From NCBI RefSeq assembly GCF_009914755.1, contig NC_060929.1: 64,000 bases of DNA. One strand, written 5' to 3'. Below are positions 1-52,614 of the stretch, piece by piece; position 1 is the stretch's first letter, and every line of letters starts with the position of its first letter. The notes beneath the pieces are model-generated. The model searched no databases, had not been told where the DNA came from, and saw only the letters and a list, made by a program, of their open reading frames with translations. The position numbers and the translations under genes are program-made. The DNA comes from the human T2T-CHM13v2.0 reference genome, Homo sapiens.

Positions 1-2035
1 CATCAAAGTGCTGAGGATTTAAAGCAATCAACTTGTTCAAAATATAAGAGACAGGAATCTACTGGGATTAATGATTACTGGTTTGTTGGGTCAAGAAACA
101 ACCAGATTGGTAAGAAAAGTTCAGCTGGGTGATTGGTGAATTGGTGGAAATTGAGTGTACAAGGGTAAAGGTTAATAAATCCCTTGGAAAAGCAAATAGA
201 GATGGACTTCATGCCCTCCAACAGGCTTTTTCTCCACCAACCCCACTGGATGTTCATAGGAAATTTGGCAGAATAACAGGAAAGTCTCTCACATGGTACA
301 GAATGGAAGTAGAGGAACAGAAATGATAAGAAGTATTTTCTCTGATAATAGTGAAATAAACTGGAAATCCACCATAGAAAAATATGTGAGAAATTCCTAA
401 ATATTTGAAAATCAAGTAACACACTTCTAAATAACCCATTCGTTTAAAAAGAAATGAAAGCACATTTTGAAATGCATAAGGAGGATTATAAAGTACACCA
501 AATGTGTGGGATACAACAAAAATAGGGCTTAATGGGAAATTTTTAGGATTAAATGCTGATGGTAGCAAAAACAAAAGCTTCCCAAATCAATACTCTAAAT
601 TTCAATCTTAATAACTTAGGAAAAAAAGCAAAGTGAATGCAGAAATCAATGAAGTTGAAAACAGTAAAAACAATAAAGAAAATCAAAACTAATGAAACTA
701 AAAACTTATTTGTCAAGGTTAACTGATAAACTTCTATCTAAATGGATGAAGAATAAAAGACATAAGACACAATTAATCAATATGAGCAATGAAAGAGCAG
801 GTATCACTACAGCTTTCACAGATGTTAATAGGAAAATAAGGGGGCATTATGAACAACACTATGACCATAAATTTAACTTACATAAAATAGCCCAAATTGT
901 TGAAAGTCACAAAAAATAGAGCTCATTTAAGAAAAAATATGTAATCTGAATACCCTCATGTCCCTTAAAGAAACTCACTTATAGTTAAACACCTTGTACA
1001 GAGAAAACTCTGCACCCAGAAGTTTTCACTGGCATATTATCAAAAACTGTTAATAAAATCATGCAAACTCTGTTCATCCTTCTCCAGAATATACAAAAGA
1101 GGAAGCACCATAAAACCCATCTTATTAGGTCAGAAGTACCCTAATACCAAAAAGAGACAAAGATATTGTAAGAAAACCACAGACCAATATGATGTGTGAA
1201 CTTAAACAGCAAAATTCTCAAAAATATTAGCAGTTAAAATCAAGCAATATATAGAACAACTGATATATCATGTAAAAGTGGGGTTTGTGTCAGAAGTACG
1301 AGGTTCATTCAACATTCAACACTCAGTCAATACAATTTACTGTATCAATGGACAAAATAAGAAATTTCATATGATCATCATAATAGAGGCAGAAAAAGCC
1401 TTTATCAAAGTTTAACATTACTGCTGATAAAACTTCAGCAAACTAAGACTAGAAAGAACTTCCTTTATTGGATAAATGCATCTACAAAAAGCTATTGCTA
1501 GCATTAAAGTTTTAAAACGTTTTTGCTTGAAAATAATAATTCTATATATTTGGAGGTAAATGTGATGTTTTCATACATGTAAACATTGTGGAATGATATT
1601 GAAAGAGTAAATGTTTTCCTTCTAACATCAGGAATAAGGCAAGGATGTCAGTTCTTAACACACCTACTTACTGTTGTACTGGATGCCATCGTCACTGAAA
1701 TAAGGAAAGAAAAAAGAAACAGAAGAAGTAAGAGGCATAAAGATTAGAAGAATAAAAATGAAACTGACTCTATTAGAAAAAAACATTATTATATATGTAC
1801 ATAATCCAAAAGAATCTAGAAGACTCTATTGGAATTAATAACCGAGTTTAACAGGGTCACATATCAATATTTAAAAAGTCAATTGCTTTCCTATATACCA
1901 GCAATGGACACTTGGAAAAATCACATACATATTATTTACCATGGCATCCAACAAAATAAAGTAATTAGGTATAAATGCAACAAAATATGTACAGGAACTT
2001 TACGTGGAAAATGATAACACACAAATAGAATTTTT
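1..2035 (+). mobile_element. Ancient L1M fragment: probable 5' region (1-~310) joined to degenerate ORF2 (EN end to RT, ~315-2035)
   Basis: A-rich sequence resembling L1 ORF2 (e.g. aacacacttctaaataaccca, atgatcatcataatagaggcagaaaaagcct, ggaataaggcaaggatg); many stops. The first 310 bp resemble an L1M4/L1ME-type 5' region (lower certainty). Confidence 0.8.
1520..1597 (-). mobile_element. Short L1MA/L1PB-type 3'-end fragment inserted antisense in the older L1M
   Basis: ataataattctatatatttggaggtaaatgtgatgttttcatacatgtaaacattgtggaatga resembles the reverse complement of the L1MA 3' terminus; L1M ORF2 resumes afterwards. Confidence 0.6.
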
Positions 2036-3300: not shown

Positions 3301-3567
3301 ACTTTGAATCAGATACAAATAAAGAGCTCACAAAATTGAAGAATCCTCACAGTACCTAGGGTTATGGCCTCATCTACTTGGATAGCCACAGAAATCCACT
3401 GGAAAGGTAGAAAGTCATGAAATATGGGTCCTTATTTGGCTAGATCAAGGGAAGAGAACAGGAAAACATGGAGGTACAGTAAATGAAGGCTGAAAGAAAA
3501 GTAATCTGTCTAAACAGAGTTCCTTTACTACAGTTGTGTTTTAACGTTCTTAAAAATTAAAAAAGCA

Positions 3568-3643
3568 GGCCAGGCGCGGTGGCTCACGCCTGTAATCCCA
3601 GCACTTTGGGAGGCCAAGGTGGGCAGATCAGGGGGTCAGGAGA
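3568..3643 (+). mobile_element. Alu 5' fragment (first ~76 nt only, 3' part lost)
   Basis: ggccaggcgcggtggctcacgcctgtaatcccagcactttgggaggccaagg...tcaggaga, then an abrupt switch to unique sequence; no tail or TSD. Confidence 0.93.
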
Positions 3644-4038
3644 CTCTTTCATCTAAGGAGGCCAAAATGAATCCTTACTCCAGTTTTCTGAAGTACGGTG
3701 GGGATTAACTTATTTTTTTTTTTATTTTTCGGAAGAAATAGGTATGTTTATTGCAGTTGGGAGGAAATTAAGATAAATAGAAATATTTGGAATGCTGTGT
3801 GTTTCTAGGGGGAAATGGGATGTAGTGAATTGGAAATTGAAGAAAATACTTCAGGTATAAGGTGTTCATGTGAAGCCATATGAAAATAGCTTCTTTGGTG
3901 ATATAATTAAGACATAAAAATCCTATTGAACTAGATCAGTCACATTTTTGGACCAATTGAAACAGAATTTTGTGACTGGCAAAATATTAGCATCTTGAGC
4001 TAAGACCAGTAGTGTATAGTTCAGTGAGTTACGTAAAA

Positions 4039-4421
4039 CAGGGTTCCCCAACCCTCATGTTGCAGACCAGTACTGATCCATGACCTGTTAGGAGCCTGGC
4101 CACACAGCAGGATGTGAGCGGAGGGCCAGGAGTATTACTGTCTGAGCTCTGCCTCCTGTTAGATCAGATTAGATTCTCATAGGAGCGCAAGCTCATTGTG
4201 AACTGCACCTGCGAAGGATCTAAACTGTGTGCTCCTTATGAGAATCTAAAGCCTGATGATCTGAGGTGGAACAGTTGCATCCCCCAAAACCATCTCTTCA
4301 CTCCTTTGATCTGAGGTGGAACAGTTGCATCCCCCAAAACCATCTCTTCACTCCTTTGATCTGTGGCAAAGTTGTCTTCCACAAATCTGGTCCCTGGTGC
4401 CAAAAAGTTTGGGGACAACCA
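4039..4421. mobile_element. MER1B (hAT-Charlie non-autonomous DNA transposon) containing a 50-bp tandem duplication
   Basis: Termini cagggttccccaacc ... gtttggggacaacca; internal ttagattctcataggagcgca / gctccttatgagaatctaa; degenerate 8-bp TSD acgtaaaa/atgtaaag. Confidence 0.9.
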
Positions 4422-4537
4422 ATGTAAAGTGAACACCACCTCTGTCAAGAAATGGAGCATTTCCAACACACTGGAACCCCATCCTGTATTCTTCCATTAA
4501 TTTGCCCTCTCTCCAAGGTAGCCACTATAATGGTGCC
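4422..4537 (-). mobile_element. L1ME-type 3' end, first half (also ~4010-4038 before MER1B); continues in opposite orientation at 5190-5461
   Basis: aacaccacctctgtcaagaaatggagcatttccaacac...aaggtagccactat matches the antisense L1ME 3' UTR pattern. Confidence 0.7.
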
Positions 4538-4984
4538 TACTGTACAGCAAGAATTAAACAATTTGATCAAAACACACAATCTCATTCTCACCAGGGGCAT
4601 TCTATTTCATTCATATACAGAAAAGAAGAGACATCATGCCATAAGTACATGATCTCACTTTTCAGAAATATAAAACACAAAGCGTTGCAGGAAGTATGAG
4701 AGATGAGTTCCGTTTTGTATTTTGGAAACTTCATGTCTAGAATACTGAATAAAGGGAAGAAAACAGAAAGCCAGGGGACATCTGTAAGAGCAGCACAGTT
4801 GGGCAGAACGACCAATGAAATGGAAGGGAATGAAAATCTATGTACGTTAGCTGTGCTAAGTGCTTTAAATACATCACTTCCAGTGATATTACTTTTAAAA
4901 ACCACCAAGTGTAAGCACAACTGAAATTAAAATATACAAATGGAAAAACCCTACAGACCAAGATCTTTCAGAAAGACAGCATAC

Positions 4985-5140
4985 CTGTAACTGCTGAAAT
5001 ACCCCTGATCGTAAGTTTCCAAATCCACAGTGGCACTGCAGATTCAAAGCACTTTCTGATACCGCTTCATAGGGGTGTCTGCTCAATTTCCCAGTCAAAC
5101 TCTTCATGGTCAACTACTTCCTCAGGAATCTCAGAAGCAC
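4985..5140 (-). pseudogene. SHQ1: SHQ1 coding exon copy (H/ACA RNP assembly factor, residues ~111-162), frameshifted
   Basis: Translates (G)[22 protein letters not shown]/+1/[29 protein letters not shown] versus recalled human SHQ1 [52 protein letters not shown]. Flanked by cattcag| acceptor and CAG|gtatg donor; extra base in the G-run at 5072-5075. Confidence 0.93.
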
Positions 5141-5189
5141 CTGAATGTGCTAAATATTATTTTTTTAAGTATGGGATTTCCCAGGTACA

Positions 5190-5461
5190 ACTAGGGGAAG
5201 AAAAAAGTATAGGAAAGAATGTCCACACAGATGTACCAAAAGACATATACAAGAATATTTATAGCTCCCCTATTCGTGATAGCAAAAAAAAAAAAGAAAG
5301 AAATAAAAATGTGGTATATTCATACAACTGAATATTACATAGCAATGAAAGCAAATGAATCTCAGCTACAATGTGAATAAATCTCACAAAAATAATGTTA
5401 AGTGAAAGAAGCCAGACAAAAAGAAATATACTGTATGACTTATATATGCAATGCAAAAACA
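5190..5461 (+). mobile_element. L1ME-type 3' end, second half (inverted relative to 4422-4537)
   Basis: accaaaagacatatacaagaatatttatagc...ataaatctcacaaaaataatgttaagtgaaagaagccagacaaaaag...tactgtatgact. Confidence 0.8.
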
Positions 5462-5724
5462 GGATTAATTTATTTTTAAAGTTCTGTTAGAAGCTGCCCC
5501 AGTCCAATAAAATCCTTGCTATGATTGGCATCGGCATCTTTCATCAAAATGCTAAAATCCTCCTCACAGGCAGTCACTGTTTTACCCTCAATGCAAGACA
5601 CTGATTGTGAATCAATTAGATGAGTTTTGCCTGGGTCCTGAGGTAGGTAGAGCATTAACCATGGCTGGAAGTTTACAGATAAGGTTGAAAGCAATGCTTT
5701 AGTGAACTAAAATGGTTGAACATA

Positions 5725-24554: not shown

Positions 24555-26288
<1,734 letters not shown>

Positions 26289-42907: not shown

Positions 42908-44060
<1,153 letters not shown>

Positions 44061-45948: not shown

Positions 45949-46984
45949 GTGAAGGGAGGAGCCAAGATGGCCGAATAGGAAGAGCTCTAGTCTACAGCTC
46001 CCAGCATGAGCAACGCAGAAGACGGTGATTTCTGCATTTCCATCTGAGGTACCGGGTTCATCTCACTAGGGAGTGCCAGACAGTGGGCGCAGGTCAGTGG
46101 GTGTGCGCACCGTACGCAAGCAGAAGCAGGGCGAGGCATTGACTTACTCGGGAACTGCAAGGGGTCAGGGAGTTCCCTTTCCTAGTCAAAGAAAGGAGCG
46201 ACAGACAGCACCTGGAAAATCGGGTCACTCCCACCCAAATACTGCGCTTTTCCGACGGCCTTAAAAATGGCACACCAGGAGATTATATCCCGCACATGAC
46301 TTCGAGGATCCTACACCCACGGAGTCTCACTGATTGCTAGCACAGCAGTCTGAGATCAAACTGCAAGGCCGCAGTGAGGCTCGGGGAGGGGCGTCTGCCA
46401 TTACCCAGGCTTGCTTAGGTAAACAAAGCAGCTGGGAAGCTCGAACTGGGTGGAGCCCACCACATCTCAAGGAGGCCTGCCTGCCTCTGTAGGCTCCACC
46501 TCTGGGGGCAGGGCACAGACAAGCAAAAAGACAGCAGTAACCTCTGCAGACTTAAATGTCCCTGTCTGACAGCTTTGAAGAGAGCAGTGGTTCTCCCAGC
46601 AGGCAGCTGGAGATCTGAGAATGGGCAGACTGCCTCCTCAAGTGGGTCCCTGACCCCTGACCCCTGAGCAGCCTAACTGGGAGGCACCCCCCAGCAGGGG
46701 CAGACTGACACTTCACACAGCCAGGTACTCCTCTGAGACAAAACTTCCAGAGGAAAGATCAGACAGCAGCATTCACGGTTCATGAAAAACCACTGTTCTA
46801 CAGCCACCGCTACTGATACCCAGGCAAACAGGGTCTGGAGTGGACCTCTAGCAAACTCCAACAGACCTGCAGCTGAGGGTCCTCTCTGTTAGAAGGAAAA
46901 CTAACAAGCAGAAAGGACATCCACACCAAAAACCCATCTGTACATCACCATCATCAAAGACCAAAAGTACATAAAACCACAAAG

Positions 46985-47991
46985 ATGGGGAAAAAACAGA
47001 GCAGGAAAACTGGAAACTCTAAAAGCAGAGCACCTCTCCTCCTCCAAAGGAATGCAGTTTCTCACCAGCAACAGAACAAAGCTGGACGGAGAATGATTTT
47101 GACGAGCTGAGAGAAGAAGGCTTCAGACGATCAAACTACTCCGAGCTACAGGAGGAAATTCAAACCAAAGGCAAAGAAGTTGAAAACTTTGAAAAAAATT
47201 TAGAAGAATGTATAACCAGAATAACCAATACAGAAAAGTGCTTAAAGGAGCTGATGGAGCTGAAAGCCAAGGCTCAAGAACTACGTGAACAATGCAGAAG
47301 CCTCAGGAGCCGATGCGATCAACTGGAAGAAAGGGTATCAGCGATGGAAGATGAAATGAAGTGAGAAGGGAAGTTTAGAGAAAAAAGAATAAAAAGAAAC
47401 AAACAACGCCTCCAAGAAATATGGGACTATGTGAAAAGACCAAATCTACGTCTGATTGGTATACCTGAAAGTGACAGGGAGAATGGAACCAAGTTGGAAA
47501 ACACTCTGCAGGATATTATCTAGGAGAACTTCCCCAATCTTGCAAGGCAGGCCAACATTCAGATTCAGGAAATACAGGGAATGCCACAAAGATACTCCTC
47601 GAGAAGAGCAACTCCAAGACACATAATTGTCAGATTCACCAAAGTTGAAATGAAGGAAAAAATGTTAAGGGCAGCCAGAGAGAAAGGTCGGGTTACTCTC
47701 AAAGGGAAGCCCATCAGAGTAACAGCAGATCTCTCGGCAGAGACTCTACAAGCCAGAAGAGACAGGGGGCCAATATTCAACATTCTTAAAGAAAAGAATT
47801 TTCAACCCAGAATTTCATATCCAGCCAAACTAAGCTTAATAAGTGAAGGAGAAATAAAATACTTTACAGTCAAGCAAATGCTGAGAGATTTTGTCACCAC
47901 CAGGCCTGCCCTGAAAGAGCTCCTGAAGGAAGCGTTAAACATGGAAAGGAACAACCGGTACCAGCCACTGCAAAATCATGCCAAAATGAAA
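46985..47991 (+). pseudogene. L1 ORF1p remnant
   Basis: Starts MGKKQSRK; indels and an in-frame TAG at 47521; ORF 47581-48027 gives the ORF1 C-terminal domain with the stop codon lost. Confidence 0.92.
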
Positions 47992-48054
47992 AGACCATCG
48001 AGACTAGGAAGAAACTGCATCAACTAACGCGCAAAATAAACAGCTAACATCATA

Positions 48055-51877
<3,823 letters not shown>

Positions 51878-52614
51878 ACAATGAGAACACATGGACACAG
51901 GAAGGGGAACATCACAGGAAGGGGACTGTTGTGGGGTGTGGGGTGGGGGGAGGGATAGCATTGGGAGATATACCTAATGCTAGATGACGAGTTAGTGGGG
52001 CAGCGCACCAGCATGGCACATGTATACATATGTAACTAAGCTGCACATTGTGCACATGTACCCTAAAACTTAAAGTATAATAACAATAATAATAAAAACA
52101 ATTTGTACAAACTTCCAATAACCTTGGCAACTCCTGTGTCACATAGCCAAGCCTACCTTCAAACACAAGTATGTAGCTGTGTCCAAGTTCAGTGTAAGAA
52201 ACAGAAGCCTCTCTAGTTACTTTAAGCAGAAATATTTAATACAGGAATTAGATGCTTACAAAGTCCTGGAAACAACTGCTGGAGTGAATTCCAACCTAGA
52301 CCCTCAATGATTTCTAGAAGTACTTAGCTGAATGTATGTACCCAGGGCATGATGTGGCCAGAATCAGGAAACTTGGGCTACATGAGAATACTACACTAAC
52401 TACTGAGTTTAGGAAGTCACACCTGAGGTGTGACCCAGTGATTAGGAAGCCAGGATCAGAGAACCAAGACTGCTTTGACCACTACAATACAGGCTGCAGC
52501 ACTGCAGTGGGAAAAACAAAAAAAAAAAGCAAATGCATCCATGTGAGTAACTGACATTTAGAGCACTTACTGCAAAGGAGACCGCAGAATGTAGAAATTA
52601 AAATGAGATTATCA

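What the first reader, a model, noticed from the sequence alone, without database searches (positions are those of the whole stretch)
3702..5477. Splice-site-intact SHQ1 exon mobilised by retrotransposition of an unspliced ANTISENSE transcript (orphan transduction-like)
Seen in the sequence: a 15/16-identical TSD (3702-3717, 5462-5477) ending at an L1 endonuclease-type TTTTT/AA site; a poly(A) tail on the minus strand (3713-3729) about 17 nt after a minus-strand AATAAA (3747-3752); and no young L1 body inside. Recalled from the SHQ1 protein: 4985-5140 is a SHQ1 exon, and GGAAGAAATAG|gtatg (EEI-G) is the end of the preceding exon. The polyadenylated strand is antisense to that exon end, which explains why the introns were not spliced out. 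Inference: the template was an antisense transcript running through SHQ1 intron 4 to exon 3, either an L1 3' read-through whose L1 part was truncated away or an antisense lncRNA. This is an RNA-mediated route that moves an exon with both splice sites and mimics an 'unprocessed' DNA duplication. The locus may already be catalogued as a SHQ1 pseudogene; the mechanism is the point of interest.
Basis: partly seen in the sequence, partly recalled or inferred. Interest (0 to 1): 0.85.

Follow-up and report, generated by a model that had tools for sequence, protein, structure and literature searches.

The report
Retrocopied antisense piece of SHQ1 gene
A 1.7-kb piece of the SHQ1 gene, including one whole exon with its splice sites, was copied to chromosome 5 through an RNA read from the gene's opposite strand and pasted in by the LINE-1 machinery; it is a clean, old and decayed example of a route already known.

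Summary
Window 3718-5461 is an insert bounded by a 15/16 target-site duplication at a TTTTT/AAAG nick site. It has a 12-13 nt poly(A) remnant on the minus strand, 16 nt after a minus-strand AATAAA.

The genome search found one contiguous parent of 1,703 bp, chr3:72882460-72884162. It covers the last 11 nt of SHQ1 exon 3, all of intron 3, exon 4 and 456 nt of intron 4. Homology stops exactly at the tail and at the right duplication. The parent has the AATAAA but no A-tract.

The two halves lie on opposite strands, with 11-13 nt lost between them.

The template was therefore a polyadenylated, unspliced RNA antisense to SHQ1. No L1 lies within 20 kb upstream in the parent, which favours a cellular antisense transcript. 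An orphan 3' transduction from a lost L1 is not excluded.

The copy is about 9% diverged, its exon is frameshifted, and no gene lies nearby.

It is a new member of a known kind (orphan transduction, or trans-mobilised genomic DNA). Interest is moderate to low.

The parts
3702..3717 (.). Left target-site duplication (16 nt).
   Evidence: It matches 5462-5477 at 15 of 16 positions. Control: 1 of 62,224 pairs at the same spacing.
3718..3730 (-). Poly(A) tail remnant, 12-13 nt. Read on the minus strand: one G (perhaps a mutated first A), then A5 T A6.
   Evidence: The tract is absent from the parent, which continues with exon-3 antisense sequence.
3731..4528 (-). Non-inverted 3' segment of the retrocopy (segment B). 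Its minus strand is the RNA sense. It equals chr3:72883414-72884162 and is antisense to the SHQ1 exon-3 end and the 5' part of intron 3.
   Evidence: 684 of 747 aligned bases are identical; K2P 0.090.
3747..3752 (-). AATAAA polyadenylation hexamer, 16 nt upstream of the tail.
   Evidence: It is conserved in the parent at chr3:72884141, where the downstream sequence is the most GU-rich of the four hexamers in the template.
3731..3746 (+). Last 11 nt of SHQ1 exon 3 (3731-3741) followed by the intron-3 donor GTATG (3742-3746).
   Evidence: The chr10 spliced retrocopy ends its exon-3 block here.
4257..4356 (.). Perfect 2 x 50 nt tandem duplication that arose in the copy after insertion. It lies inside an old interspersed repeat (about 4020-4430) that was carried over from the parent.
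   Evidence: 100% identical. One search shows the parent lacks 48+2 nt here. In one search, 66 of 70 genome matches fall in this repeat.
4529..5461 (+). Inverted 5' segment of the retrocopy (segment A). Its plus strand is the RNA sense. It equals chr3:72882460-72883400 and holds 456 nt of intron 4, exon 4 and the 3' part of intron 3.
   Evidence: 849 of 925 aligned bases are identical; K2P 0.088.
4985..5140 (-). Copy of SHQ1 exon 4 with intact AG (5142-5141) and GT (4984-4983). A 1-nt insertion shifts the frame and brings a TGA stop.
   Evidence: The exon borders come from the chr10 spliced copy.
5234..5359 (+). Ancient L1 ORF2 C-terminal fragment. It is part of parental intron 3 and is not the mobilising element.
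   Evidence: 41% amino-acid identity. The parental counterpart is chr3:72883160-72883297.
5462..5477 (.). Right target-site duplication. Its first two bases (GG) also match the parent at the internal priming point.

Best explanation
An RNA polymerase II transcript ran antisense through SHQ1 on the chr3 plus strand, through the start of intron 4, exon 4, intron 3 and into the end of exon 3. It was cleaved and polyadenylated 16 nt after an AATAAA that lies in the antisense of the intron-3 donor region. Being antisense, it carried no usable splice signals and stayed unspliced.

The LINE-1 machinery then inserted it on chr5 by target-primed reverse transcription.

1. The plus strand was nicked at TTATTTTT/AAAG, and its T-rich end primed on the poly(A). 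This gave segment B.
2. The second-strand end (...AATCC-3') primed inside the same RNA at a GG, 11-13 nt upstream of where the first cDNA stopped. It copied towards the RNA's 5' end and gave the inverted segment A. This is twin priming.

Shown:
- the one-piece parent and the exact ends of homology;
- the tail, which the parent lacks;
- the polyadenylation signal;
- the 16-nt target-site duplication and the nick site;
- the inversion geometry;
- the strand of the template.

Inferred:
- that the RNA was a cellular antisense transcript and not L1 read-through, with odds of about 3:1 within this explanation;
- the age, roughly 30-40 million years.

The copy has no evident function today.
For: Parent and ends.
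- outside the interspersed repeat, the insert matches only chr3:72882460-72883400 (same strand) and chr3:72883414-72884162 (opposite strand). These are adjacent pieces of one stretch.
- homology ends at window 3731 and at 5461 (or 5463). The parent reads on into exon 3 with no A-tract. The parent keeps the AATAAA.
- the window flanks have no chr3 match.

Polyadenylation site.
- the hexamer that was used has the most GU/U-rich downstream sequence of the four in the template (G+T 0.65 against 0.33-0.53).

Target-site duplication.
- the 15/16 match is unique, 1 of 62,224 pairs at that spacing.

Gene, strand and exons.
- Pfam SHQ1 exons lie on the chr3 minus strand downstream of the parent, so the template strand is antisense.
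- the chr10 spliced retrocopy defines exons 1-4 and their borders.

Source of the transcript.
- 31 L1 peptide pieces found only 1 match in chr3:72862000-72892000, the ancient fragment inside intron 3. The same queries found 38 matches elsewhere in the window, down to 26% identity.
- the intron-4 stretch further upstream is unique, so no second retrocopy exists.
- no Rfam family lies in the copied segment.

Twin priming in print.
- (PMC12016303, passages): 5' inversions occur in 18-22% of L1 insertions and in 3 of 23 processed pseudogenes, with gaps or overlaps of about this size between the two cDNAs.
Against: - No outgroup primate genome could be searched, so no empty site has been seen.
- The transcript's start and promoter are unknown, and I have no independent evidence of antisense transcription at SHQ1.
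- The tail is short (12-13 nt), is interrupted by one T, and begins with a G.
- Three earlier hexamers (chr3:72882679, 72882858, 72883314) must have been read through.
- The inversion junction 4528|4529 shows no microhomology.
- The 5' end of the copied stretch falls only 10 nt after the A-tail of a plus-strand Alu in the parent. I cannot explain this or date it relative to the event.
- Absence of an L1 from today's parent does not exclude a source L1 allele that was later lost.
Confidence: 0.9

Rival explanations
1. Orphan L1 3' transduction. A full-length L1 once sat in SHQ1 intron 4 in the plus orientation. Its transcript read through its own poly(A) signal to the AATAAA at the exon-3 border. 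5' truncation or twin priming then left only the flanking sequence in the new insert. This differs from the best explanation only in the promoter and in cis versus trans mobilisation.
For: - The hallmarks are the same: tail, duplication, nick site, downstream poly(A) signal.
- The class is in print. PMC12533184 uses the term 'orphan transductions' and cites Rozmahel 1997 and Ejima & Yang 2003 (passage).
[quoted passage not shown] That these two concern the same insertion is my recall.
Against: - No L1 coding remnant on either strand in the 20.5 kb upstream of the copied stretch in this genome. There was 1 match in 30,001 nt, and it is the ancient truncated fragment inside intron 3. The same queries detect very old L1 pieces elsewhere (38 matches).
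- The 3 kb immediately upstream, read by eye, is unique sequence plus Alus.
Confidence: 0.22
2. The inversion is secondary. An ordinary, collinear retro-insertion was later rearranged by a DNA-level inversion of its 5' part, with no twin priming.
For: The final arrangement alone would look the same.
Against: - One inversion breakpoint would have to fall exactly at the boundary between insert and duplication, and the other would have to remove only 11-13 nt.
- The 2-nt GG overlap between the start of the duplication and the parent at the priming point is what twin priming predicts.
- Twin priming is common: 18-22% of L1 insertions and 3 of 23 processed pseudogenes.
Confidence: 0.04
3. DNA-level duplication. 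A genomic fragment of SHQ1 was copied to chr5 as DNA (an unprocessed pseudogene fragment), and the T-run and the direct repeat are chance.
For: Introns and splice sites are retained, which is how an unprocessed copy looks.
Against: - The tail is absent from the parent and sits 16 nt after an AATAAA.
- The direct repeat lies exactly at both ends of homology and is unique among 62,224 controls.
- The target has an endonuclease-type nick site.
- No flank homology exists.
Confidence: 0.02

Closest known systems
Trans-mobilised or 'orphan' transduced genomic DNA carrying CFTR exon 9 with its flanking introns (Rozmahel et al. 1997; Ejima & Yang 2003, Hum Mol Genet 12:1321)
   Same: A single exon with flanking intron sequence moves through an RNA intermediate and the L1 machinery, with no L1 body in the insert. 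PMC12533184 cites both papers for 'orphan transductions'.
   Different: The gene and the locus differ. Here there is a twin-priming inversion and no later amplification: only one copy exists in the genome. I saw only the titles and one citing sentence. Neither paper is held, and what I remember of their details (antisense orientation, L1 association) is recall.
L1 3' transduction and exon shuffling (Moran et al. 1999; Pickeral 2000; Goodier 2000), and the orphan transduction of Solyom et al. 2012
   Same: Read-through to a downstream poly(A) signal, then insertion with a tail, a target-site duplication and often 5' truncation or inversion.
   Different: No source L1 is found upstream of the parent, and no L1 sequence lies at the insert's 5' end. 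These papers were seen only as reference-list titles.
Twin priming (Ostertag & Kazazian 2001)
   Same: An inverted 5' segment lies next to the 5' duplication. The two segments are contiguous in the source apart from a small loss. There is microhomology at the internal priming point.
   Different: The template is not L1 and not an mRNA, and the inversion junction itself shows no microhomology. The mechanism was read as described in PMC12016303 (passages). The original paper was not read.
snoRNA retroposons of types 2 and 3 (Weber 2006, PMC1687206)
   Same: These are L1-type retrocopies that keep parental intron sequence, sometimes with exons, and are polyadenylated at cryptic signals (one figure case is 16 bp before the tail). 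The author uses them to infer unannotated antisense transcription units (passages).
   Different: No snoRNA or other Rfam family lies in this insert. The template here is antisense to a protein-coding gene and carries a whole coding exon in reverse.
Processed pseudogene, such as the SHQ1 copy at chr10:51478612-51479939
   Same: The same machinery and the same parent gene.
   Different: The chr10 copy is sense and spliced, with exons 1-4 joined. The chr5 copy is antisense-derived, unspliced and inverted in part.

Membership tests
L1-mediated (target-primed) retro-insertion | Target-site duplication of about 7-20 nt lying exactly at the ends of homology to the source. | tested here: met
   A 16-nt duplication, 15/16 identical, abuts the tail and the last homologous base. 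Control: 1 of 62,224.
L1-mediated (target-primed) retro-insertion | A 3' poly(A) tail that is not encoded at the source. | tested here: met
   A 12-13 nt A-rich remnant. The parent reads on into the exon-3 antisense without an A-tract.
L1-mediated (target-primed) retro-insertion | First-strand nick at a TTTT/A-type endonuclease site. | tested here: met
   The reconstructed target is TTATTTTT/AAAG. The motif is as listed in PMC12016303.
L1-mediated (target-primed) retro-insertion | An empty site in lineages that split off before the insertion. | not testable with these tools
   Only the window's own genome can be searched. No other primate genome is held.
Twin-priming 5' inversion | The inverted 5' segment and the direct 3' segment are adjacent in the source. 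The end of the inverted segment nearest the duplication lies next to the start of the direct segment, with a small gap or overlap. | tested here: met
   The end of A at chr3:72883400 (or 72883402) lies at the right duplication. B starts at chr3:72883414. 11-13 nt are lost.
Twin-priming 5' inversion | Microhomology between the second-strand target end and the internal priming point. | tested here: met
   2 nt (GG) are shared by the start of the duplication and chr3:72883401-72883402. This is weak on its own.
Processed pseudogene | Copy of a mature, spliced, sense mRNA with the introns removed. | tested here: not met
   Intron 3 is complete and part of intron 4 is present. The tail is on the strand antisense to SHQ1. 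It is not filed here.
L1 3' transduction (orphan form) | A source L1 in the same orientation directly upstream of the transduced stretch. | tested here: inconclusive
   None within 20.5 kb upstream in this genome (control). A lost or polymorphic source allele cannot be tested.
Unprocessed (DNA-duplicated) pseudogene fragment | Homology ends that are unrelated to a tail, a poly(A) signal or a duplication, usually as part of a larger duplicated block. | tested here: not met
   Homology stops at the tail and at the duplication. The flanks are unique.
SHQ1 gene (identity of the parent) | The parent blocks are spliced together in an mRNA that encodes the Pfam SHQ1 domain. | tested here: met
   PF04925 hits lie on the chr3 minus strand downstream of the parent and in the chr10 retrocopy. 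The chr10 copy joins four chr3 blocks, the first with the ATG, in a CpG island. Exon 4 translated alone gave no Pfam or PDB match.

The most novel reading that the evidence does not exclude
The insert is a roughly 30-40-million-year-old fossil of a genuine cellular antisense transcript of SHQ1. That transcript is absent from everything I could consult, was expressed in the germ line or early embryo, and used a strong cryptic poly(A) site at the exon-3/intron-3 border. If so, trans-mobilised antisense RNAs are a route, independent of any L1 neighbour, by which complete exons with both splice sites are scattered through primate genomes. Some fragments now classed as unprocessed pseudogenes would then be RNA-derived.
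Probability: 0.6. Interest if true: 0.45.

Novelty: new member of a known kind. Interest (0 to 1): 0.35.

Why it matters
It is an unusually complete worked example. The parent, both ends, the tail, the signal, the nick site and the twin-priming geometry are all still readable. It shows that the L1 machinery can move an intact exon with both splice sites when the template is read from the opposite strand and so escapes splicing.

Such copies look like DNA duplications to annotation pipelines, and this one is not annotated at all.

It also records an ancient antisense transcript and a cryptic poly(A) site in SHQ1.

The practical weight is small:
- the copy is old;
- its exon is frameshifted;
- no gene lies within 100 kb upstream of it, and the nearest one after it is a lncRNA about 145 kb away;
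- the route was described for CFTR exon 9 two decades ago.

Tried and rejected
- Translating the window's exon copy for Pfam failed on its in-frame stop. The parental exon 4 alone (51 aa) matched no Pfam family above noise (one match, E 0.12) and no PDB chain. The gene was identified instead through the Pfam SHQ1 search of the genome and the chr10 spliced copy.
- blastn of chr3:72862000-72892000 against the window's large L1 gave no match at either setting. I replaced it with a peptide search that had a positive control.
- A CpG-island scan found only the SHQ1 promoter region, chr3:72889500-72890750. This lies beyond the poly(A) site and so cannot be the antisense start.
- Reading the 3 kb upstream by eye showed Alus and unique sequence and no evident promoter.
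- I could not tell whether the plus-strand Alu that ends 10 nt before the copied stretch is older or younger than the event.
- Rfam found nothing inside the copied segment. The only matches are sub-threshold Alu-related ones to SRP and mir-1268, outside it.
- Literature. No paper in the library holds 'SHQ1 pseudogene' or 'SHQ1 antisense'. The 31 papers matched yeast Shq1p or 'SHQ1-associated'.
- Ejima & Yang 2003 is not held, and five citing papers gave only reference-list entries or one sentence.
- A search on semi-processed or intron-containing retrocopies gave 3 papers, none to the point.
Full report
**What is in the sequence**

Window 3702-3717 and 5462-5477 are a direct repeat of 16 nt, identical at 15 positions. 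Scanning every pair of 16-mers at the same spacing across the window, 1 of 62,224 pairs reaches 15/16, and it is this pair. Put together, the target reads ...TTATTTTT/AAAG, the kind of site that the L1 endonuclease nicks.

Directly after the left repeat comes T6-A-T5 (3718-3729) and a C (3730). On the minus strand this is a short, decayed poly(A) tail. The hexamer AATAAA lies on the minus strand at 3752-3747, 16 nt before the point where the tail begins.

**The parent**

A search of the window's own genome with 3718-5461 gave 70 matches:
- 1 is the window itself.
- 66 fall within query 302-715 and belong to an old interspersed repeat.
- 1 is an exon-sized match on chr10.
- 2 are on chr3. Window 4529-5461 equals chr3:72882460-72883400 on the same strand. 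Window 3731-4528 equals chr3:72883414-72884162 on the opposite strand.

The source is therefore one contiguous stretch of 1,703 nt.

A permissive BLAST with flanks added on both sides found nothing beyond these ends, apart from two further bases at the right end. The base-by-base view shows three things:
- Homology stops at 3731.
- The parent carries on with non-A sequence, the antisense of exon 3.
- The parent has the same AATAAA.

The window's flanks match nothing on chr3. Their only repeats are an Alu piece and a short dispersed element some 290 nt to the right.

**That the parent is SHQ1, and which exons**

The Pfam SHQ1 model (PF04925) finds five matches in the genome. Three are exon-sized and lie on the chr3 minus strand, at 72859102-72859269, 72854541-72854678 and 72834778-72834930. 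That is 23-49 kb downstream of the parent in the sense of a minus-strand gene. The other two are contiguous matches at chr10:51478612-51479167.

The chr10 locus is a spliced retrocopy. It joins four chr3 blocks:
- 72890070-72890285
- 72886226-72886302
- 72884150-72884277
- 72882912-72883073

The first block lies in a CpG island and holds the start codon. So the third and fourth blocks are exons 3 and 4 of the mRNA.

The chr5 insert begins 11 nt before the end of exon 3. It runs through the whole of intron 3 and exon 4, and ends 456 nt into intron 4. Exon 4 translated on its own was too short to be recognised.

**Strand and mechanism**

SHQ1 is on the chr3 minus strand. The segment that carries the tail (segment B) is chr3 plus-strand sequence followed by poly(A). 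The template was therefore antisense to SHQ1, which explains why intron 3 is still there: an antisense RNA has no SHQ1 splice signals.

Read on the tail-bearing (minus) strand of the window, the insert is:
1. the duplication;
2. segment A inverted, running from chr3:72883400 down to 72882460;
3. segment B, from 72883414 up to 72884162;
4. the tail;
5. the duplication.

This is exactly the arrangement that twin priming produces. The first cDNA starts on the tail and stops at 72883414. The second target strand primes inside the same RNA, 11-13 nt further upstream, and copies towards the RNA's 5' end. The start of the duplication (GG) matches the parent at that priming point.

In a recent long-read survey, 5' inversions of this type were found in 18-22% of L1 insertions and in 3 of 23 processed pseudogenes. 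Gaps or overlaps of about a dozen bases lay between the two cDNAs (PMC12016303, passages read). A later DNA inversion could give the same picture only if one breakpoint fell exactly on the edge of the insert.

**The poly(A) site**

The template holds four AATAAA or ATTAAA hexamers. The three that were read through have A-rich or mixed downstream sequence (G+T 0.33-0.53, T 0.15-0.23). The one that was used is followed in the parent by a C-A step at the cleavage point and then a GU/U-rich stretch (G+T 0.65, T 0.38). This is what a functional site looks like by textbook knowledge. It makes an antisense cleavage at this spot plausible, but it is not evidence that such a transcript exists today.

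**Where the RNA came from**

This is the one point left open. I cut the large L1 of the window into 31 peptide pieces and searched chr3:72862000-72892000. One match appeared: an ancient ORF2 C-terminal fragment inside intron 3, which is part of the copied sequence and is truncated right next to exon 4. The same queries found 38 L1 pieces elsewhere in the window, some at only 26-35% identity, so the search is sensitive.

The 3 kb just upstream of the copied stretch are Alus and unique sequence. A further upstream stretch has no other copy in the genome. No snoRNA, miRNA or other Rfam family lies in the segment.

This favours a cellular antisense transcript mobilised in trans. It does not exclude a source L1 allele that was never fixed. 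By recall, the insertion named in two reference-list titles of PMC4859970 (Awano 2010, Solyom 2012, titles only) was first read as a retrocopy of a non-coding gene and then as an orphan transduction from a non-reference L1. That is the cautionary precedent. I put the L1 read-through variant at about 0.2-0.25.

**An unexplained detail**

The copied stretch begins 10 nt after the A-tail of a plus-strand Alu in the parent, with a second plus-strand Alu before it. Either the Alu arrived later at an A-rich spot and the closeness is chance, or it was in the RNA and the second cDNA stopped just short of it. I could not date the Alu against the event.

**Age and state**

Leaving gaps out:
- Segment A is identical at 849 of 925 aligned bases (K2P 0.088).
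- Segment B is identical at 684 of 747 aligned bases (K2P 0.090).
- There are 13 indel events in all.

From recalled figures for neutral divergence between human and Old World monkeys (about 6-7%) and New World monkeys (about 11-13%), the insertion falls roughly between those splits, some 30-40 million years ago. This is an inference, not a measurement.

The exon copy keeps its AG and GT but has a 1-nt insertion that shifts the frame into a TGA. A perfect 2 x 50 nt tandem duplication arose in the copy later. According to the annotation supplied with the finding, no gene lies in the window or within 100 kb before it. There is therefore nothing for the exon to be spliced into.

**Comparison with what is known**

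This works like an orphan transduction, or a trans-mobilisation of genomic DNA. [quoted passage not shown] I could not read either paper, and what I recall of their details is not used as evidence.

Weber 2006 (PMC1687206, passages) described L1-type retrocopies that keep parental introns and exons, are polyadenylated at cryptic signals, and reveal antisense transcription units.

The chr5 insert is not a processed pseudogene, because it is unspliced and antisense. It is not a DNA duplication, because it has a tail, a signal, a duplication and a nick site. Nothing on an SHQ1 pseudogene or antisense transcript was found in the library.

**Verdict**

The added point is that the two-strand structure is twin priming. 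This is a new, very legible member of a known kind. It has some value as a teaching case and as a record of an ancient antisense transcript, but it is not surprising to a specialist. Interest 0.35.

Noticed in passing
L012 (chr10:51478612-51479939, minus strand): A processed (spliced) SHQ1 pseudogene. SHQ1 exons 1-4 are joined without introns and followed by the Pfam SHQ1 domain. There are stops and frameshifts, and it is 86-93% identical to the chr3 exons.
   Followed up: partly
window 4257-4356: A perfect tandem duplication of 50 nt (100% identical) inside the retrocopy. It is absent from the chr3 parent, so it is much younger than the insertion and may vary between people.
   Followed up: partly
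L011 1-459 (chr3:72882001-72882459): Two plus-strand Alus in tandem end 10 nt before the first base of the copied stretch. An inverted Alu lies just before them, at L010 9630-9930. It is unexplained whether this closeness to the 5' end of the retrocopy means anything.
   Followed up: partly
window 3549-3645: An Alu 5' fragment of about 80-95 nt, 88-97% identical to other Alus, breaks off without a right half or a tail about 55 nt left of the insertion site. It gives a sub-threshold SRP RNA match in Rfam.
   Followed up: no
window 46381-52107: A large plus-strand L1 with a 456-aa open stretch of ORF2 and many shorter open pieces. Related younger L1 3' ends lie at 24561-26157 and 42909-43942.
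   Followed up: no
window 725-2012: A very old plus-strand L1 ORF2 remnant (26-65% amino-acid identity to the window's large L1), 1.7 kb left of the insertion. No link to the insert is evident.
   Followed up: no
L011 7500-8750 (chr3:72889500-72890750): The only CpG-island-like stretch in the 30 kb examined. It holds the first block (with the start codon) of the SHQ1 mRNA, so it is presumably the SHQ1 promoter.
   Followed up: partly
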